Source of the DNA: a virus
DNA: 64,000 nucleotides
Strand: one strand, 5' to 3'
Virus record (IMG/VR): IMGVR_UViG_3300050015_000276
Span: 1 to 64,000 of that record
Shown here: positions 4,413 through 50,466 of the stretch, in pieces
Layout of the letters: each line of letters opens with the position of its first letter
Numbering within the stretch: the first letter of the stretch is position 1
Program-made: the position numbers and the translations under genes
The notes under the pieces: generated by a model
The model's input: the letters and a program-made list of their open reading frames with translations, nothing else
What the model was told of the DNA's origin: nothing
Database searches by the model: none

Positions 4413-4994
4413 ATGAAAGAAACTGAAGAAATTTATGTATCAATTGATATTGAGGCCGATGGTAAAGTTCCCGGTCTCAGTTCAATGATTAATTTTGGTG
4501 CCGCTTTTTATTTTAATAATGGAGATTTCATTGATTCATACGAGGCAAACCTTTCACCTCTTCCTCCACCAGCATCTCCCAATCCCGAAACAACTCAATG
4601 GTGGGAGCAGCAATTTGCCAAAAATCCTAAATTAAAAGATTTTCTAAATTTTAATGTCCGGCCGGCACGGGTTGTGATGCCTGATTTTCTTAAATTTAGT
4701 GAATCTGTCGGTGCTCTTTATAAAAAGCCAATGACTGTAATTGCTTATCCGGCTGGGTTTGATTGGACCTGGATGTATTGGTATCTCATTCGATTTACAG
4801 GCAAGTCACCATTTGGGTTTTCATGCCTGGATATTAAATCGTATGCTGCGGCTAAAATGAATTGCGATTATCGACATGCCGTAAAACGTAATATGCCTAA
4901 GGATTGGTTTGATAAGAAACTGAAACACAATCATACTGGGCTAGCAGACTGTCAGGAACAAGCATCACTTTTCTTTTCCATGCGGAATGCATAA
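4413..4994 (+). CDS. DEDDh 3'-5' exonuclease (Rv2179c/DUF5051-like)
   Basis: SIDIEADG (ExoI), FDW (ExoII), HTGLAD (ExoIII H-x4-D). Confidence 0.85.
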   Translation: MKETEEIYVSIDIEADGKVPGLSSMINFGAAFYFNNGDFIDSYEANLSPLPPPASPNPETTQWWEQQFAKNPKLKDFLNFNVRPARVVMPDFLKFSESVGALYKKPMTVIAYPAGFDWTWMYWYLIRFTGKSPFGFSCLDIKSYAAAKMNCDYRHAVKRNMPKDWFDKKLKHNHTGLADCQEQASLFFSMRNA

Positions 4995-5050
4995 AATCAT
5001 TGACATTCAAGAATACCTGTGATAGAATAGTTTTATATGAGGCATTCAAA

Positions 5051-5419: not shown

Positions 5420-5719
5420 ATGTTGCATATTCTTACTAACCTGCCTGATATTATTAATGGCTCTTTTGAATGCTTTGGAGGAGTTTTTCTTTGTCTCAAC
5501 ATAAAAACGTTATTGAGGGATAAAAGAGTTACGGGAATTCACTGGGGAAGTACCATTTTCTTTACTTCTTGGGGATTATGGAATTTATTTTATTATCCTC
5601 ATTTAGGTCAAATGTTAAGTTTTGCTGGTGGTATTTTCATTTGCGTTGCTAATATCATTTGGGGATGTTTGCGAGTTTATTACCATTACAGAAATAAAAG
5701 GCTAAATATTAGTGAATAA
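5420..5719 (+). CDS. Three-TM membrane protein, PQ-loop/SemiSWEET-like
   Basis: 99 aa, three hydrophobic helices, RDKRVTGIHW loop after TM1. Confidence 0.55.
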   Translation: MLHILTNLPDIINGSFECFGGVFLCLNIKTLLRDKRVTGIHWGSTIFFTSWGLWNLFYYPHLGQMLSFAGGIFICVANIIWGCLRVYYHYRNKRLNISE

Positions 5720-5723
5720 TTTA

Positions 5724-5795
5724 CGGAGTGTAGCCTAGCGGCCAGGCACTTGTTTTGGGAACAAGTTCACGCAAGTTCGATTCTTGCCACTCCGA
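5724..5795 (+). tRNA. trnP: tRNA-Pro (anticodon TGG), CCA not encoded
   Basis: CGGAGTG/CACTCCG acceptor, GCCT/AGGC D stem, CTTGT-TTTGGGA-ACAAG anticodon arm, GCAAG-TTCGATT-CTTGC T arm. Confidence 0.95.
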
Positions 5796-5847
5796 CAATA
5801 TTTTAATAGGAGTCATATGAAGCTTCATTAAGATAAGGAGCATCAAA

Positions 5848-6042
5848 GTGGCACGAAAGAAAAGCGTAATTAGAGGTTGTGGCTGTTTTAGTTGTAGATG
5901 GGGAATGCATAATTCTTCCTGGGGAAAAGCCCAAGTTAAGAATGCGGTACAAAAAGTACGTCATCATACTAAAGCAGCATTGGCAATTGGAGATTATGAC
6001 AAGGCAACAGATTTTATGACTAGCACTGGTTATACGGACTAG
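5848..6042 (+). CDS. Small basic hypothetical protein (CGCFSC motif)
   Basis: GTG start with AAGGAG SD. Confidence 0.6.
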   Translation: MARKKSVIRGCGCFSCRWGMHNSSWGKAQVKNAVQKVRHHTKAALAIGDYDKATDFMTSTGYTD

Positions 6043-6140
6043 TCATTCCACTCGGTTTAATATTCGGTAACGGTTTTAATGTCCCATAGTCGTTTACTTG
6101 GTTTAATAAATGGTACAGGATTTATTTTAAGAAATTGACG

Positions 6141-6420
6141 GTATTATTCGTGTATTACCCTATTTGGGTTGCGAACAAGAAGAGGCTGCGATGCCTCCAT
6201 CTCCACCATCTCCTCCATAATTAAAGTTTTATTATGTGGGGATGAACTAGAATCGATTGGCGTTAATCAGGATATGGGGACGAATACGTGAAGTGCTCAC
6301 GATAAACAGAACAAAACAACAAACGACGAAAGCAATTTCTCGTACTTGCAAATGGCCGCCTAAAGCGGTTCAAGCAGCGCGCCCGGAGGAGCGGGGACCA
6401 GAATCCTCCACTTTCACTTT
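6141..6420 (+). ncRNA. ssrA: Circularly permuted (two-piece) tmRNA
   Basis: T arm + CATCTCC-A-CCA (6182-6208) lies upstream of GGGGATG (6238-6244), giving a G3:U70 acceptor; tag frame ...TNDESNFSYLQMAA-TAA (6319-6363); outer ends approximate. Confidence 0.85.
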
Positions 6421-6476
6421 CCAAAATAATTTTAAAATATCTCCACCTTAAACTCCTAGTTGTGCTATATATTAAT

Positions 6477-7274
6477 ATGAGACAATTAAGACTAGTACTC
6501 TTAATATCTCTATTCTGGATATTTGTGATATATTATGTTTTTATGACACAAAAATCTGGTCAGGTAGCGTTAGTAACACCAATTAATAAAGTAACAGGAG
6601 TAACTACCGAGGATCAAATTAACTGTCTTAGCTCTGCCATCTACTATGAATCAACTAAAGATCTTGATGCTCAAATTACAGCAGCAAAGAACTTGATTAA
6701 TAGTAGTAACGATTACATGAATGTTTGCACTGATCTGTCAATGCATTATCATGAGAATTGGATAGAGATATCAAAACAGAAAAACGATCAATCGATTATA
6801 GTGGCCAGAAATATCTACTGGTTACGCTTCCATTCAACCCAAGAACAAGGTATCAATTTAATTATTAGGTCTGAAGGTTTTGCAAACCATGCCTATAATG
6901 ATGTTGGATACTATTCCATAGGATTTGGTACACTTTTACGCAATAAAAAATTGTACGATGCCTATCGGTATAAAATTATAGATCAAGACGAAGGCGAAAG
7001 GCTTCTAATTGATGAAGTAATTAATATTGAAGTGGCTTTAAAATCTATGGTCAAAGTACCATTAACACCAAATCAAGAGGCAGCATTAACCTCATTCTGC
7101 TATAATGTAGGTCTCACACATTTTGTTTATTCCAAAATGTTAAATCTATTAAATGCGGGTCAATATGCTAATGCTGCTAATGAATTTCAAAGATGGAATT
7201 TAGTAAAAAGAAAAGTGTCGGAAGGTTTGGTTGCTCGCCGAGCCGCAGAAAGAAAACTTTTCTTGAAAAACTAG
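6477..7274 (+). CDS. Membrane-anchored GH24 lysozyme (endolysin-like) with SleB-like remnant
   Basis: N-terminal TM helix; LIIRSEGF..HAYND.GYYSIGFG (E-x8-D triad); LTPNQEAALTSFCYNVG; GLVARRAAERKLF. Confidence 0.85.
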   Translation: MRQLRLVLLISLFWIFVIYYVFMTQKSGQVALVTPINKVTGVTTEDQINCLSSAIYYESTKDLDAQITAAKNLINSSNDYMNVCTDLSMHYHENWIEISKQKNDQSIIVARNIYWLRFHSTQEQGINLIIRSEGFANHAYNDVGYYSIGFGTLLRNKKLYDAYRYKIIDQDEGERLLIDEVINIEVALKSMVKVPLTPNQEAALTSFCYNVGLTHFVYSKMLNLLNAGQYANAANEFQRWNLVKRKVSEGLVARRAAERKLFLKN

Positions 7275-7361: not shown

Positions 7362-7610
7362 ATGAACAATACCAAAAGTGAAGTTTTCGAAACATTATTC
7401 ATAGATCACCCTTTATTCGATATTAGTGCATCCTCATTTGCATTAGAAATTGAAAAAGTAGTAAAGACGGAAAAGGTGGACTATTTGGCGGCAGTTTGCC
7501 AACTGTGTGAACGATATGAGATTGATTTCTCAGCCGTACCAAAACTTATTACTCCAACAATGCGAGATAAAATCGAAGTGGCGGCGACTGATAGAAAGTT
7601 TAGGATATAA
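7362..7610 (+). CDS. gp33: Late transcription coactivator gp33
   Basis: FALEIEKVV...DYLAAV...CERYEID...VPKLIT..MRDKIE..A; lies just before gp59. Confidence 0.85.
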   Translation: MNNTKSEVFETLFIDHPLFDISASSFALEIEKVVKTEKVDYLAAVCQLCERYEIDFSAVPKLITPTMRDKIEVAATDRKFRI

Positions 7611-7613
7611 AAT

Positions 7614-7799
7614 ATGTTTGTACAATTTAAACCAGATTTAACTAATCCAAATGAACTGCTTGGTGATTCAGTAGTTAGGGCTTGTTGGTACGCCTATAAT
7701 GCTGGAAAAAATAATGAATGTCTCAAAAGTGTAGGTTTTAGTGGGTGCGAAGAATTTCAAAATTTTCGTGTCATTCTGGAGATTAATGAAGGACAATGA
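7614..7799 (+). CDS. Hypothetical protein
   Basis: 61-aa ORF, ATGA overlap with gp59. Confidence 0.55.
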   Translation: MFVQFKPDLTNPNELLGDSVVRACWYAYNAGKNNECLKSVGFSGCEEFQNFRVILEINEGQ

Positions 7800-8419
7800 T
7801 TCCGTTCGAGGCATTTGAGCTTTACATTGCCATAAAACAACACTTCACCAAACCTTCCTACGATTTTTTCAAATATAACGGCAAAACAACCGCATCAGTT
7901 TCCAAATTTGAATCTCGTCCAGACAAATCTTTCTTCTACAAAATTTCCAAAAAATATTCCAGATCTAAACTAATAGATCTTTATGTTGCCAATTTTGTCG
8001 ATAGCCCAGAACTCTGGATAGGCGATCTATTAGACGATACGGCCGAAGCCATATACACCGAATGGCAAAAAAAGATTGAAAGTCTTTCATACCATTTTTC
8101 TGAACAGTGTGATGGATTTTTATCTTGGACAGAATCTAAAGGAATGAAATTCAATGAATTATTCCAAATACATGATGCCGATCACCCAGTCATTCTCAAG
8201 ATGGCACTCCAAAGGATCTTATCTCTTGAATCGTTTCTTATCCTCAATAGGATACTTAATTTTGGAAAGAACTTCAATAGAAAACTAGACGATATAGTTT
8301 GGAAAGACTTTTGGTTCCGTGCCTGCAAATATGATTCGTTTCTGATAAATATAGAGAAGGAGAAATACAAATCAATTCTCCGATCTAAAATAGAAACGGA
8401 ATACCCAAATGTTACATAG
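7796..8419 (+). CDS. gp59: Helicase loader gp59
   Basis: PFEAFELYIAIKQHFTKPSYDFFKYNGKT...FESRPDKSFFYKISKKY; synteny gp33-gp59-gp32. Confidence 0.92.
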   Translation: MIPFEAFELYIAIKQHFTKPSYDFFKYNGKTTASVSKFESRPDKSFFYKISKKYSRSKLIDLYVANFVDSPELWIGDLLDDTAEAIYTEWQKKIESLSYHFSEQCDGFLSWTESKGMKFNELFQIHDADHPVILKMALQRILSLESFLILNRILNFGKNFNRKLDDIVWKDFWFRACKYDSFLINIEKEKYKSILRSKIETEYPNVT

Positions 8420-8609
8420 TGATTTAATACTCCATTATAATTCAGTTTGTGAAAAGCATAAGGAGATGAAAGAACAACGAGATAAAGCCATTGAACGTGC
8501 CAATATTGCAATAGCATTAAATGGATGTTTTGAAGTAGAATTGGCAGGCCTTCGGCAAGAACTTAAAGAAGCATATCGAGAAATATCGGAACTTAAACAT
8601 GGCAGATAA
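8409..8609 (+). CDS. Small coiled-coil protein
   Basis: Heptad pattern; overlaps both neighbours. Confidence 0.5.
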   Translation: MLHSDLILHYNSVCEKHKEMKEQRDKAIERANIAIALNGCFEVELAGLRQELKEAYREISELKHGR

Positions 8610-8787
8610 TCCATATTACACAAAAGTTACATTAGAAACTAATGACCGAAGACTAATTGAAAGAATTACTAGATTATTTAAGGAATATCCACAACACGAT
8701 TATCTCCTTACAATAGAACAAAGACCACGAAAATCTTCAGAAACTCCTATTCTTCTTACGGAAGAATTGGGAGATAATATTGATTAA
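8599..8787 (+). CDS. Hypothetical protein
   Basis: 62-aa ORF in operon. Confidence 0.5.
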   Translation: MADNPYYTKVTLETNDRRLIERITRLFKEYPQHDYLLTIEQRPRKSSETPILLTEELGDNID

Positions 8788-8900
8788 AGTCCTTGACAAT
8801 CTTCAAGGATTATGTTATACTAAATAAATTCAAGTAGTACCTACATTATGATTTGTTTGTGAACAAGACCAAAAATAAAATACAGGAAACAATACAAACA

Positions 8901-9881
8901 ATGTCCTTCTCTTCTTATAAAAAGTCACGCACAGATCTCACCAACCTAAACAAGAAAGTCGATGAGATTGCCGCAAGTTCAAATAAATATTCCAAAGATT
9001 CACGTTTCTGGAAACCTACTGTTGGTAAAGATGGTTGCGGATCGGCACGAATTAGATTCCTACCTGCCGCAGAAGGCGAAGACCTTCCTTGGGTTCAATA
9101 TCACGAACATAATTTTAATGTTGATGGTTCATATTTTGTTAATTTATGCCCAACCACATTAGGACGCGAATGTCCAGTATGTAAGGCAAATGGAGTATTA
9201 TGGAAGACTGAAATTGATGAAAATCAAAAAATTGTCCGAGATCGTAAGCGCAAGTTAGTTTATGTTTCTAATATCCTTGTTCTTAAGGATAAAGAAGCGG
9301 CCGAAAATGAAGGTAAGGTATTTCTATACCAATTTGGCCAAAAGATCTTCGAGAAGATTAAGATGGCATTAAAGCCAAAAGACGAAGAAGATCCCGCAGT
9401 TAACGTATTTGACTTTTGGGATGGCGCCGACTTCTCATTAGAAATCAAGAAAGTGGCCGGTTATCGGAATTATGATGATAGTAAATTCCGTGCACCTTCC
9501 GCATTACTTGGTGGTGACGATAAAGAACTTGAGAAGATCTTTAAGCAATTATATCCATTACAACCTTTTGTCGCCGAAACAAAGTTTAAGACTTACGAAG
9601 AGTTGGAGAAGAAGTTTAATGAAGTGGTTTCTGGAGTAAGAGGAAAGATTCAAAAGAAAGCTGATGAATTGTTTGCTGATGCTGCTCCAGTGGCTATTCC
9701 TGAAAAGAAAGTTGAACGGAAACCAAAAACAGAAGAGGAAGTAACGCCACCTTGGACCTCCTCAGAAAAGTCAACGCGTAAACCAAAAGTGACTAAATCA
9801 AAGCCAGCAGTTGTTGAGGAAGATATTCCTCTTGAAGATGATACTTTAAATTATTACGAACAATTGGCATCCGAAGATTAA
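8901..9881 (+). CDS. gp32: Single-stranded DNA-binding protein gp32
   Basis: DSRFWKP...GSARIRFLPA, CPTTLGRECPVCKAN Zn site, EGKVFLYQFGQKIFEKI, FDFWDGADF, acidic tail DDTLNYYEQLASED; ATG 8901 preferred. Confidence 0.96.
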   Translation: MSFSSYKKSRTDLTNLNKKVDEIAASSNKYSKDSRFWKPTVGKDGCGSARIRFLPAAEGEDLPWVQYHEHNFNVDGSYFVNLCPTTLGRECPVCKANGVLWKTEIDENQKIVRDRKRKLVYVSNILVLKDKEAAENEGKVFLYQFGQKIFEKIKMALKPKDEEDPAVNVFDFWDGADFSLEIKKVAGYRNYDDSKFRAPSALLGGDDKELEKIFKQLYPLQPFVAETKFKTYEELEKKFNEVVSGVRGKIQKKADELFADAAPVAIPEKKVERKPKTEEEVTPPWTSSEKSTRKPKVTKSKPAVVEEDIPLEDDTLNYYEQLASED

Positions 9882-49229: not shown

Positions 49230-50466
49230 ATGCAACCTACCAGTAGGGAAACGTTTATACAATACTGTAAAGCGAATTTAGGAGATGGAATTATACACAT
49301 CGAACTAACAGACGCCCAGGCTAATAATTGTGTGGATGACGCGCTTACGATGTGGAGAGAATACAGTTATGAGGGAACGCAGCGGACGTACCTTAAGCAC
49401 CAAGTGACGGCTCAAGATATGATTAACCACTGGATACCGTGTGACGATTCCATTATGTCAGTGGTAAGAATAATTCAATGCAACGAGGGAAATTTAAATA
49501 TTTTTGATGTCCGGTATCAACTCCGTTACTGTGTAGCGGCTTAAGGAAGTAATTTCTTAAGCAAACTCCGTTAATTGCTGGAAACTCCTTTCATAGAGGA
49601 CAATCAGCAGCCAAGCCAAGGAAACTCTTGGAAGGTTCAACGACTATGGCAATTGCCAGTAGGGTTCAAGTGGACTCGAAATGCGGAGCATCCAACAATC
49701 ATTGGATGGTGATATAGTCTGATCTCCTAGGTAACTAGGAGAGGTTAAATGGCAACGATTTAACCGCAACATAAATGTTACAAGACTTTTATAATTTCTC
49801 TAACGTTTCCATAAATGTTTGTGGCTTTTTCGAGTAATCGGAAAATGAAAACTCTGTTAATTGCTGGAAACTCCTTTCATAAAGGACAATCAGCAGCCAA
49901 GCCAAGAAAGTAATTCTTGGAAGGTTCAACGACTAGGATTTAATCCGTAGGGAATAGTATTCCCGAAATGCAGAGCATCCAGATTTCCTGGATGGTGATA
50001 TAGTCTGATCTCCTAGGTAACTAGGAGAGATTAAACGGTAACGGTTTAATCGTAACATAAATGGCAACATTACGTCATTACCATGGAGAAACTCCGGCTC
50101 ATTGATTGGCTCATGAACCCGGAACCCACAATATCTTTTGAGCGTCTTGCCAATCGCATCTATGTTAATGCGGATTGGGGATACAGAGTAAAGCAAGGAG
50201 ACTTCTTTGTATTCGAAGTATACCAATGGCTTGATGAACTTTCATATCCACGTATTTGGACAGATAGATGGTTAAAATCATATGCCACCTGTTTGATGCG
50301 GAGAAATTGGGGTTCTAATTTAAAGAAATTTAATGGTATCCAAACCCTTGGTGGTGTCCAATTAAACGGACAACAAATCTATGACGAAGCGATGGATGAA
50401 AAGAAAGATTTAGAAGATATCCTTTATCGTGATTATCAGATACCACCTAGATTGTTTATTGGCTAA
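49230..50466 (+). CDS. gp13: Neck protein gp13, spliced from exons 49230-49526, 49778-49812 and 50064-50466 (244 aa)
   Basis: FIQYCKANLG...IELTDAQ...CVDDAL; spliced junctions read FDVRYQLR-LQDFYNFSNVSM-QHYVITMEKL; WLKSYATCLMRRNWGSNLKKF.G..TLGGV.LNGQQIYDEA. Confidence 0.92.
49527..49777 (+). ncRNA. Group I intron (IA2-like), gp13 intron 1, 251 nt, no ORF
   Basis: P AATTGCTGGAAAC, Q AATCAGCAG, R TTCAACGACTA, S GATATAGTC; P1 CCGT/GCGG with U.G; P7.1 and P7.2; terminal G49777. Confidence 0.93.
49813..50063 (+). ncRNA. Group I intron (IA2-like), gp13 intron 2, 251 nt, no ORF
   Basis: Same P/Q/R/S elements; P1 CCAT/GTGG with U.G; P10 ATGTT/AACAT; terminal G50063. Confidence 0.93.

What the first reader, a model, noticed from the sequence alone, without database searches (positions are those of the whole stretch)
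6141..6420. Circularly permuted (two-piece) tmRNA in a phage
Seen: the 3' end of the tRNA-like domain (GAGGC-TGCGAT-GCCTC, CATCTCC-A-CCA, 6182-6208) precedes the 5' end (GGGGATG-AACTAGAATCGA, 6238-6256) with a 29-nt intervening segment. The acceptor has G3:U70 and A73. Nested cross-piece pairings: TATTCGT(6145)/ACGAATA(6280), CCTATT/AAT-AGG, CAA/TTG. The tag frame ACA AAC GAC GAA AGC ... ATG GCC GCC TAA gives (A)TNDESNFSYLQMAA; the resume codon is uncertain. Established: two-piece tmRNAs occur in alphaproteobacteria, some betaproteobacteria and some cyanobacteria, and a C-terminal AA is a ClpXP degron. Inference: an independent permutation or acquisition in a phage whose other genes (PEP-CTERM) do not point to those hosts. 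The T loop has only 6 nt. No smpB is in this window.
Basis: partly seen in the sequence, partly recalled or inferred. Interest (0 to 1): 0.85.

Follow-up and report, generated by a model that had tools for sequence, protein, structure and literature searches.

The report
Two-piece tmRNA gene in a phage
A complete 180-kb T4-like phage carries a genuine split (circularly permuted) ribosome-rescue RNA gene, but such genes are already described in related phages and this one sits at the same conserved spot, so it is an inherited, slightly unusual member of a known kind, not a new invention.

Summary
Window 6145-6412 (+) is a circularly permuted, two-piece tmRNA gene: Rfam tmRNA_permuted 78.2 bits (cut-off 47) and alpha_tmRNA 52.6 bits (cut-off 50). 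It has a 7-bp acceptor stem with G3:U70, A73 and an encoded CCA, cross-piece P2 helices, a tag frame ending MAA-stop, and a 3' pseudoknot.

Two-piece tmRNAs in T4-like phages are published (Melnitz and pelagimyophages; PMC9004378), and this scan has noted them many times on other DNA. The gene lies in the same slot (exonuclease - tmRNA - gp33 - gp59 - gp32) as in Melnitz, HTVC008M, at least 12 IMG/VR contigs and two closer relatives, so it was inherited within the phage lineage. It is not an independent permutation.

Covariation over 25 homologues supports the fold (95% of cells paired against 45-50% for slid controls).

Peculiarities:
- The T-loop has 6 nt, a variant also seen in one unrelated viral contig.
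- The resume codon is not Ala; it lies between 6316 and 6325.
- No smpB is present anywhere in the genome.
- ARAGORN misses this whole clade at default settings.
- The gene looks mosaic: the tRNA-like half resembles other phages, the PK1 and tag region matches the sister phage at 79%, and the 3' pseudoknot is of alphaproteobacterial type.

Verdict: new member of a known kind, modest interest.

The parts
5000..5028 (+). Nearest complete phage early-type promoter upstream (TTGACATTC, 11 nt, TGATAGAAT). It is the inferred source of the transcript that carries tRNA-Pro and the tmRNA.
   Evidence: Its motif matches the genome's recurrent TTGACATCC-N12-TGnTAnnnT promoters. No promoter-like site lies between 5400 and 6145 on the + strand. 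Use of this promoter is inferred, not shown.
5724..5796 (+). tRNA-Pro(UGG), 350 nt upstream of the tmRNA. The tRNA-then-tmRNA order is conserved in relatives.
   Evidence: ARAGORN and Rfam tRNA at 59.6 bits. A tRNA also precedes the tmRNA in L210 and L212.
6145..6208 (+). Acceptor piece (3' half of the tRNA-like domain). It holds the P2 5' strands (6145-6178), T-stem and loop GAGGC-TGCGAT-GCCTC (6182-6197), the 3' acceptor strand CATCTCC (6198-6204), A73 and the encoded CCA (6205-6208).
   Evidence: RF04321 alignment, co-fold, and covariation in the T-stem, acceptor stem and P2.
6209..6237 (+). Intervening segment of 29 nt, predicted to be removed during maturation. It forms a small hairpin, CATAAT/ATTATG.
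   Evidence: Fold at -2.0 kcal/mol. Spacers in relatives range from 6 to 142 nt and are also hairpin-forming. Excision is inferred by analogy with Caulobacter.
6238..6286 (+). Start of the coding piece: 5' acceptor strand GGGGATG (6238-6244), D-region AACTAGAATCGA (6245-6256) and the P2 3' strands (6257-6286).
   Evidence: RF04321 alignment. The junction pair U6257:A6178 is a compensated version of the usual C:G (GC 21, AU 4).
6287..6324 (+). PK1-position hairpin CGTGA-AGTGC-TCACG (6287-6301) and an A-rich leader (6302-6324) that contains the resume-codon window.
   Evidence: Identical hairpin in the sister genome. Leader lengths are 23, 24 and 24 nt in the three orthologues. 79% identity to the sister over 6284-6362. 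A pseudoknot partner for the hairpin loop was not found.
6325..6363 (+). Core tag reading frame GAC...GCC GCC TAA, encoding DESNFSYLQMAA plus stop. It may start up to three codons earlier (ACA 6316, ACA 6319 or AAC 6322).
   Evidence: Frame and orthologous tags DDSFVLPMAA and DEFNYSLPLAA. ARAGORN at -ps80 gives the same tag. Indels inside the tag are multiples of 3.
6354..6370 (+). Hairpin GGCCGC-CTAAA-GCGGTT that presents the TAA stop codon in its loop.
   Evidence: Present in the unconstrained and in both constrained folds.
6368..6412 (+). 3' domain with a predicted H-type pseudoknot: CCC 6382-6384 pairs with GGG 6393-6395, and GGAGGA 6385-6390 pairs with TCCTCC 6404-6409. The model's 3' end is ...CCTCCACT at 6412.
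   Evidence: The alpha_tmRNA model aligns through to 6412. About 77% identity to the 3' pseudoknot of 9 of 30 sampled bacterial alpha-type tmRNAs: score 22 against shuffles of 15.2 +/- 1.5, with 1 of 200 shuffles reaching it. The outer stem folds at -10 kcal/mol. The pseudoknot itself is inferred.
7362..9881 (+). Downstream synteny anchors: gp33 late-transcription coactivator (7362-7610), gp59 helicase loader (7796-8419) and gp32 (8853-9881).
   Evidence: Pfam Trans_coact, PHROG gp59 and gp32, and the same order downstream of the tmRNA in relatives.

Best explanation
Window 6145-6412 (+) is a two-piece (circularly permuted) tmRNA gene, ssrA, inherited vertically within a lineage of T4-like myoviruses.

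Inferred mechanism:
1. It is transcribed early as part of a longer + strand transcript, probably from the promoter at 5000 together with tRNA-Pro.
2. The precursor is cut by host tRNA-processing enzymes. RNase P would cut 5' of G6238, and 3' trimming would expose A-C-C-A at 6208. The 29-nt spacer is discarded.
3. This leaves a 64-nt acceptor piece and a coding piece of about 175 nt, held together by the acceptor stem and the P2 helices.
4. Host AlaRS charges the RNA through G3:U70 and A73. Host SmpB delivers it to ribosomes stalled on broken mRNAs, since the phage has no smpB.
5. Translation resumes in the A-rich leader (between 6316 and 6325) and adds a tag of (A)[0-3 residues]DESNFSYLQMAA. 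Its hydrophobic-Ala-Ala end should route the tagged protein to host ClpXP-type proteolysis.

The benefit to the phage would be keeping ribosomes free while host mRNA is being degraded.

Shown here: the gene's identity, its fold, its conservation and its synteny. Inferred: processing, charging, the SmpB partnership, the resume codon and the physiological role.
For: - Model scores: RF04321 78.2 bits against a cut-off of 47, E = 2.7e-13, full-length 1-213. RF01849 52.6 bits against 50, full-length to 6412.
- Acceptor: a 7-bp stem with G3:U70, plus A73 and CCA.
- Fold energy: the tmRNA-type fold with 29 forced pairs is within 2.9 kcal/mol of the optimum.
- Covariation: a model built from this copy alone finds 24 homologues. 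On that alignment 95% of cells are paired, against 45-50% for slid controls, and 28 of 32 pairs change on both sides. G3:U70 is kept in 25 of 25.
- Orthologues: the three differ by compensated changes in P1, the T-stem, P2a, P2b and P2c, including a co-inserted U:A pair.
- Tag: the frame is conserved with 3n indels and an [ML]AA-stop ending.
- Synteny: the same slot is used in Melnitz (annotated SsrA), HTVC008M, at least 12 IMG/VR contigs, L210 (96.1 bits) and the sister genomes (88.6 bits).
- Precedent: Melnitz and pelagimyophage two-piece ssrA (PMC9004378).
Against: - The T-loop has 6 nt where all other orthologues and isolates have 7. One unrelated contig, L008, shares the 6-nt form, and nothing is known about how it functions.
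- One of the two usual D-region G residues is A (AGA instead of AGG or GG).
- No in-frame GCN resume codon exists, and the resume site cannot be fixed.
- Only a hairpin, not a demonstrable pseudoknot, occupies the PK1 position.
- ARAGORN does not call the gene at default settings.
- The alpha-model score is barely over its cut-off.
- There is no dedicated promoter or terminator.
- No expression, processing or charging data exist.
- The host, and therefore its SmpB, is unknown.
Confidence: 0.85

Rival explanations
1. The gene is a genuine tmRNA homologue but no longer rescues ribosomes. The shortened T-loop and altered D-region would make it either a decaying copy or a decoy that soaks up host SmpB or AlaRS and so inhibits host trans-translation.
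For: - The 6-nt T-loop is unique among the three orthologues and three isolates.
- The D-region reads AGA instead of GG.
- There is no Ala resume codon.
- It is sub-threshold in ARAGORN.
- Precedent: the TLD-only RNA of mycobacteriophage DS6A, and the observation that a TLD-like molecule inhibits tmRNA (PMC4131195).
Against: - All helices are intact with compensated changes, including changes private to this copy: the U:A co-insertion in P2c and the U:A junction pair.
- The tag frame is open and ends in MAA-stop inside its hairpin.
- The same 6-nt T-arm occurs in an independent 140-kb viral contig, L008, alongside an ANDSMGAYALAA tag, so it is a maintained variant.
- The U54...A58 core of the T-loop is present.
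Confidence: 0.1
2. One reading: the permutation arose independently in this phage, or the gene was recently captured from a bacterial host that has a two-piece tmRNA.
For: The alpha_tmRNA model passes its cut-off. The 3' pseudoknot is about 77% identical to that of a subset of bacterial alpha-type tmRNAs, and no phage relative shares it.
Against: - The permuted gene sits in the same slot across a broad phage clade.
- The PK1 and tag module is 79% identical to the sister phage.
- Apart from the 3' domain, similarity to 30 bacterial copies is at the random level.
- Real alpha tmRNAs score 213-312 bits on the alpha model, against 52.6 here.
- Capture of the 3' module alone is not excluded; see the section on the most novel reading.
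Confidence: 0.04
3. The region is not an RNA gene but encodes a protein (ORF 6257-6451, 64 aa, TTG start), or is a chance match.
For: An ORF of 64 codons overlaps the region.
Against: The CM E-value is 2.7e-13. The covariation follows the RNA structure. The orthologues conserve the helices and the short tag frame, not this ORF.
Confidence: 0.01

Closest known systems
ssrA of Methylophilales phage Melnitz and Pelagibacter phages HTVC008M and Mosig (Buchholz et al. 2022, PMC9004378)
   Same: All are permuted two-piece tmRNAs in T4-like myoviruses with no phage smpB reported. The genomic slot is the same, upstream of gp33-gp59-gp32. The spacer forms a hairpin that ends just before the GGGG 5' end. 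All match RF04321 (113, 94 and 91 bits against 78 here).
   Different: - Only about 40% protein identity in core genes, and no nucleotide similarity outside the tRNA-like domain.
- No glnA riboswitch follows the gene here.
- 6-nt against 7-nt T-loop.
- The isolates have Ala or Gly resume codons (ANDNYVPVDYALAA, ANFNEYALAA, GEDNFALAA). Here there is no GCN.
- The 3' pseudoknot here is of bacterial alpha type, which they lack.
Orthologous tmRNAs of the closest uncultured relatives: L212-L214 (sister genomes, gp59 81% aa) and L210 (gp59 53% aa)
   Same: Same locus, with the same upstream tRNA and small ORF and the same downstream genes. The tags are homologous (DDSFVLPMAA, DEFNYSLPLAA). The PK1 hairpin is identical or compensated. 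ARAGORN misses them too at default settings.
   Different: - They have canonical 7-nt T-loops, different acceptor and T-stem sequences, and spacers of 115 and 6 nt.
- Their 3' domains fit the beta_tmRNA model (55 and 68 bits, both below the cut-off of 84), not the alpha model.
- The sister does not encode the final A of CCA.
Bacterial two-piece tmRNA of Alphaproteobacteria (Caulobacter; Keiler, Shapiro and Williams 2000, cited in PMC9004378; Rfam RF01849)
   Same: Same gene order (acceptor piece, spacer, coding piece), same two-piece architecture, and a similar 3' pseudoknot motif GGAGG...CAGAA.CCTCCACT.
   Different: It scores 52.6 bits where genuine members score 213-312. The tRNA-like domain, P2, PK1 and tag show no specific similarity. 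It is phage-borne, with no adjacent or genomic smpB.
One-piece tmRNAs of mycobacteriophages (Bxz1 group) and the TLD-only RNA of phage DS6A (Hudson et al. 2014, PMC4131195)
   Same: Phage-encoded tmRNA-type RNAs that depend on host SmpB.
   Different: They are not permuted. The one-piece model RF00023 gives no hit at this locus.

Membership tests
Two-piece (circularly permuted) tmRNA, Rfam RF04321 | Score at or above the curated gathering threshold, over the full model | tested here: met
   78.2 bits against 47, model positions 1-213 of 213, E = 2.7e-13.
Two-piece (circularly permuted) tmRNA, Rfam RF04321 | Permuted gene order: T-arm, 3' acceptor strand and CCA, then a spacer, then the 5' acceptor strand and the mRNA-like part | tested here: met
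   6182-6208, then a 29-nt spacer, then 6238 onwards. The one-piece model gives no hit here.
Two-piece (circularly permuted) tmRNA, Rfam RF04321 | Alanine identity set: 7-bp acceptor stem with G3:U70 and discriminator A73 | tested here: met
   GGGGATG pairs with CATCTCC including G:T at position 3, followed by A and CCA. G3:U70 is kept in 25 of 25 homologues.
Two-piece (circularly permuted) tmRNA, Rfam RF04321 | T-arm with a 5-bp stem and a 7-nt T-loop | tested here: inconclusive
   The 5-bp stem is present and covaries. The loop is TGCGAT, 6 nt, one short of the TGCGAAT and TGCGATT loops of relatives. The same 6-nt form, TTCGAT, occurs in L008. Its functional effect is unknown.
Two-piece (circularly permuted) tmRNA, Rfam RF04321 | Cross-piece P2 helices that hold the two RNAs together | tested here: met
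   Model alignment, constrained fold at -64.2 against an optimum of -67.1 kcal/mol, compensated changes among orthologues, and 79.6-93.0% of cells paired in the four P2 helices (helices 1-4), with two-sided changes in all 20 of their pairs. That alignment is fitted to the model.
Two-piece (circularly permuted) tmRNA, Rfam RF04321 | Short tag reading frame ending in hydrophobic-Ala-Ala, with the stop codon in a hairpin loop | tested here: met
   ...CAA ATG GCC GCC TAA, with TAA in the loop of the 6354-6370 hairpin. Orthologous tags end PMAA and PLAA.
Two-piece (circularly permuted) tmRNA, Rfam RF04321 | Defined resume codon (usually GCN) preceded by a pseudoknot (PK1) | tested here: inconclusive
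   There is no in-frame GCN. The candidates are ACA 6316, ACA 6319, AAC 6322 and GAC 6325. A 1-nt leader indel relative to the orthologues excludes starts further upstream. Only a hairpin was found at the PK1 position.
Two-piece (circularly permuted) tmRNA, Rfam RF04321 | Maturation into two RNA molecules, alanylation, and SmpB-dependent tagging | not testable with these tools
   No transcript or biochemical data are available. No smpB is present in the phage genome, so host SmpB would be needed.
Alphaproteobacterial tmRNA lineage, Rfam RF01849 | Score comparable to genuine members, and specific similarity along the whole molecule | tested here: not met
   52.6 bits is just over the cut-off of 50, but nine genuine bacterial members score 213-312. 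Only the 3' domain is specifically similar. The orthologues in sister phages fit the beta model better. Beta scores 33.2 here, and the cyano model gives no hit.
Syntenic phage ssrA of the pelagimyophage / Melnitz-like T4-like clade | Location between the exonuclease block and gp33-gp59-gp32 on the same strand | tested here: met
   Here the order is Rv2179c-like exonuclease 4413-4994, tRNA, tmRNA, lysozyme, gp33 7362-7610, gp59, gp32. The same order is seen in Melnitz, HTVC008M, L210, L212 and at least 12 IMG/VR contigs. Cyanophage S-H9-2 has the backbone without the tmRNA.

The most novel reading that the evidence does not exclude
Phage tmRNA genes in this lineage may evolve by swapping modules, not as single units. 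Relative to its sister phage (70-85% protein identity in the flanking genes), this copy keeps the PK1 and tag module at 79% nt identity. Its tRNA-like half, however, is of a type found in unrelated viral contigs and includes a rare 6-nt T-loop. Its 3' pseudoknot is of alphaproteobacterial type, where the sister's and L210's are beta-like. If the 3' module, or the tRNA-like module, was copied from the host's own tmRNA, it would mark the host of an uncultured phage. It would also mean that phages retune their ribosome-rescue RNA to each host's SmpB and processing machinery.
Probability: 0.3. Interest if true: 0.5.

Novelty: new member of a known kind. Interest (0 to 1): 0.3.

Why it matters
The practical value is mostly for annotation. 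It extends phage-borne two-piece tmRNAs beyond the marine and aquatic isolates where they were described, into a distinct, uncultured T4-like clade.

It also shows that ARAGORN, the tool used for the published census, misses this clade at default settings: this copy, its sister, L210, L008 and nine further copies. The reported marine bias of two-piece phage tmRNAs may therefore be partly a detection bias.

The conserved insertion slot (exonuclease - tmRNA - gp33 - gp59 - gp32) offers a simple way to find more copies. The mosaic pattern and the 6-nt T-loop are leads for how phage tmRNAs adapt to host SmpB, AlaRS and RNase P, but neither is established.

Tried and rejected
1. Nucleotide search of 5600-6900 against 50,697 phage records found no match.
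2. The IMG/VR scan with the 3' acceptor 16-mer was too generic: 116+ loci, only short hits to the tRNA-like domain.
3. The genome-contig scan with the permuted acceptor pattern gave 35 hits. All 11 that I read were chance matches in GC-rich coding DNA without a T-arm, and ARAGORN at a relaxed threshold made no plausible permuted-tmRNA call at the pattern site in any of the 35. The scan therefore says nothing about a donor.
4. The metagenome scan with the 19-mer 5' end gave 11 hits. Ten are chance matches at a bacterial gene end; only L160 is a real relative.
5. The unconstrained co-fold recovers the acceptor stem, T-arm, stop hairpin and 3' stem but not P2. The interaction energy is no better than shuffles (83 of 200 as low), so MFE alone does not show the cross-piece pairing.
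6. Alignment-free duplex z-scores for P2 are weak across the family (this copy -1.9), so I did not use them as evidence.
7. RNAalifold on a MAFFT alignment recovers only the acceptor stem, because the sequence alignment fails in P2.
8. I rejected the idea that the 6-nt T-loop alone explains ARAGORN's miss: the sister and L210 have canonical loops and are missed too.
9. I rejected TTGAC at 6134 as a promoter: it has no -10 element and would start inside the RNA.
11. Taxon names for the bacterial genomes that carry the 3' motif could not be obtained, so no host call was made.
12. L210's parent assembly is not held, so it could not be searched.

Full report
**What the window is.** The window is the first 64 kb of a complete 179,687-bp viral record with direct terminal repeats (CheckV 100%) and 37% G+C. 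It is a T4-like myovirus. PHROG and Pfam hits identify the gp6 and gp7/8-type baseplate wedge proteins, gp32, the gp59 helicase loader, T4 RNase H and the gp33 late-transcription coactivator. The nearest isolates are Pelagibacter phages Mosig and HTVC008M and the OM43 phage Melnitz (about 40% aa identity in gp6), followed by T4-like cyanophages at 35-42%.

**Checking the observation.**
- The Rfam covariance model for permuted tmRNA (RF04321) matches 6146-6363 over its whole length at 78.2 bits (cut-off 47; E = 2.7e-13 for the window).
- The alphaproteobacterial model (RF01849) matches 6098-6412 at 52.6 bits (cut-off 50).
- At this locus the beta model reaches 33.2 bits (cut-off 84). The cyanobacterial and one-piece models give nothing.
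- It is the only tmRNA in the genome, and there is no smpB anywhere in it.
- ARAGORN does not report the gene at default settings. It calls a permuted tmRNA with tag DESNFSYLQMAA only at -ps80.

**Anatomy.**
- Acceptor piece, 6145-6208: three P2 5' strands, the T-arm GAGGC-TGCGAT-GCCTC, the 3' acceptor strand CATCTCC, A73 and an encoded CCA.
- Spacer, 6209-6237: 29 nt that fold into a small hairpin.
- Coding piece, starting with GGGGATG at 6238. With the 3' strand this gives seven pairs including G3:U70.
- Then follow the D-region, the P2 3' strands (6257-6286), a hairpin at the PK1 position (6287-6301) and an A-rich leader.
- The tag frame ends ATG GCC GCC TAA (6352-6363). The stop codon sits in the loop of a hairpin (6354-6370).
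- A 3' domain (6382-6409) can form an H-type pseudoknot.

Forcing the model's P2 register (29 pairs) costs only 2.9 kcal/mol relative to the unconstrained optimum (-64.2 against -67.1). The third is more likely in another register.

**Is the fold real?** Thermodynamics alone is not convincing for the AU-rich P2 helices. Comparative evidence is.
- I built a covariance model from this copy's core (6145-6286) with the structure above. It found 24 other permuted tmRNAs among the fetched phage and bacterial loci.
- On the resulting alignment 95% of cells form standard pairs, against 45-50% when partners are slid and 68% when shuffled.
- 28 of 32 pairs show changes on both sides. G3:U70 is invariant in all 25 sequences.
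- That alignment is fitted to the model and so leans towards the structure. The ungapped T-stem, acceptor and P2a columns, however, do not depend on gap placement.
- Independently of that alignment, the three closest orthologues differ by compensated changes in P1, the T-stem, P2a, P2b and P2c. In this copy's P2c a U:A pair is inserted on both strands.
- The usual junction pair, C of UCGAC with G of GGAC, is U:A here, in L137 and in L160.

**Where it came from.**
- Two-piece tmRNAs in phages are published. Buchholz et al. 2022 (PMC9004378) described an alpha-type two-piece ssrA in Melnitz. They found 53 two-piece calls among 18,146 phage genomes, 50 of them marine or aquatic, and permuted tmRNAs in 17 of 47 Melnitz-like contigs.
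- RF04321 finds the gene in Melnitz (113 bits), Mosig (94) and HTVC008M (91).
- In all of them it lies between an exonuclease block and gp33-gp59-gp32. Here the order is Rv2179c-like exonuclease (4413-4994), tRNA-Pro, a small ORF, the tmRNA, a lysozyme, gp33 (7362-7610), gp59 and gp32.
- The tmRNA-gp33-gp59-gp32 block recurs in at least 12 IMG/VR contigs.
- Through gp59 I found closer relatives. L210 (gp59 53% aa) and the sister genomes L212-L214 (gp59 81%, gp33 78%, gp32 70% aa) have the same gene order. Each has a tRNA followed by a permuted tmRNA at the same place, at 96.1 and 88.6 bits.
- Cyanophage S-H9-2 has the same backbone with no room for the gene.
- The gene is therefore a lineage trait at a conserved slot. 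It is not an independent permutation or a recent capture.

**The tag.**
- The three orthologues share an identical or compensated PK1 hairpin.
- Their A-rich leaders are 23, 24 and 24 nt long.
- Their homologous tag cores are DESNFSYLQMAA (here), DDSFVLPMAA (sister) and DEFNYSLPLAA (L210). Indels inside the tags are multiples of three.
- The 1-nt difference in leader length rules out a shared start further upstream. The resume codon here must therefore be one of ACA 6316, ACA 6319, AAC 6322 or GAC 6325, none of which is the usual GCN.

**Peculiarities.**
- *The T-loop.* It has 6 nt, whereas the isolates, the sister, L210 and the other IMG/VR copies that I read have 7. An unrelated 140-kb viral contig, L008, has the same T-arm with TTCGAT, so this is a recurring natural variant and not an assembly error.
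- *Detection by ARAGORN.* ARAGORN at default settings also misses the sister, L210, L008 and nine further phage copies. At -ps80 it gives wrong tags for the sister and L210. The published ARAGORN-based census therefore probably under-counts this clade.
- *Mosaic structure.* Relative to the sister, the PK1 hairpin with its leader (27/32) and the tag are conserved (79% nt over 6284-6362).
  - The T-arm with the 3' acceptor strand matches L008 (27/33) and L124 (23/33). The 5' acceptor strand with the D-region matches L160 (22/22) and L148 (18/22). The sister scores 7/33 and 7/22 on these segments.
  - The 3' domain matches no phage copy. It aligns at about 77% with the 3' pseudoknot of 9 of 30 sampled bacterial alpha-type tmRNAs: score 22 against shuffles of 15.2 +/- 1.5, with 1 of 200 shuffles as high. 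The sister and L210 score 12 and 15.
  - The sister's and L210's 3' domains fit the beta model instead.
  - Genuine alpha tmRNAs score 213-312 bits on RF01849, against 52.6 here. I therefore do not file this gene as a member of the alphaproteobacterial lineage.

**Expression.** The phage's recurrent early promoter is TTGACATCC, about 12 nt, then an extended -10. Complete copies lie at 2896 and 5000, and none lies directly upstream of the tmRNA. The TTGAC at 6134 has no -10. No glnA riboswitch follows the gene, unlike in Melnitz. I infer co-transcription with tRNA-Pro from the promoter at 5000, followed by processing by host tRNA-maturation enzymes.

**Mechanism and rivals.** The most likely account (confidence 0.85 for identity and inheritance, lower for function) is a working two-piece tmRNA. 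It would be charged by host AlaRS and delivered by host SmpB to ribosomes stalled on damaged mRNAs during infection, adding a degradation tag that ends in MAA. The main rival, at about 0.1, is that the shortened T-loop and altered D-region make it a decaying copy or an SmpB decoy. The intact, compensated helices, the open tag frame and the recurrence of the 6-nt T-arm in L008 argue against that rival, but only biochemistry can decide.

**Verdict.** This is a new member of a known kind. The scan has already noted phage two-piece tmRNAs on other DNA many times (1,630 notes in at least 1,028 genomes hold those words), though not this sequence. The module-swapping reading is the most novel possibility that the evidence leaves open.

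Noticed in passing
window 49517-49741 and 49803-50027 (+): Two full-length group I introns (103.5 and 95.9 bits) lie only about 60 nt apart. They appear to split one + strand gene, with exon-like ORFs at 49230-49544 and 50083-50466 and a mini-exon between the introns.
   Followed up: partly
window 6462-7274 (+): A phage lysozyme (Pfam PF00959) with an extra N-terminal region of about 125 aa sits between the tmRNA and gp33. The sister genomes lack it at this position, and L210 has a shorter lysozyme there. This slot is therefore recombinationally active.
   Followed up: partly
L212:2719-3012 (sister genome; also L213, L214): The orthologous tmRNA has a 115-nt spacer that forms a long hairpin extending the acceptor stem. 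The gene encodes ACC-T instead of ACCA, so the terminal A would have to be added after transcription.
   Followed up: partly
L008, L126, L128, L129, L131, L133, L137, L140, L148, L160, L210, L212, L213 (13 loci, with L212 and L213 the same sister lineage): ARAGORN at default settings misses these phage permuted tmRNAs. RF04321, or my own model R1, finds them. ARAGORN-based censuses of phage tmRNAs are therefore likely to be incomplete.
   Followed up: yes
L210 (NCBI assembly GCA_003191745.1, contig QGNH01000780.1, 20,983 bp): A contig deposited within an NCBI genome assembly is plainly a T4-like phage fragment (RNase H, gp33, gp59, gp32, tmRNA). It was probably binned with a bacterial genome. 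The parent assembly could not be searched.
   Followed up: no
window 2896, 5000, 37331-61058 (+): The phage has a recurrent promoter with the consensus TTGACATCC, about 12 nt, then TGnTAnnnT (an extended -10). There are 39 matches with at most 1 mismatch, against 19.8 expected by chance. Most lie after 37 kb, and two lie upstream of the tmRNA region.
   Followed up: partly
genome 125603-145836 (beyond the window): ARAGORN finds 13 tRNA genes in the genome. Twelve are clustered at 125-146 kb. Only tRNA-Pro (5724-5796) sits next to the tmRNA.
   Followed up: no
L217 (Synechococcus phage S-H9-2, MW147367.1 125740-138621): This cyanophage keeps the backbone RNase H ... PhoH - exonuclease - gp33 - gp32, with only 17 nt between the exonuclease and gp33. 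The tmRNA slot is empty in at least some cyanophages.
   Followed up: partly
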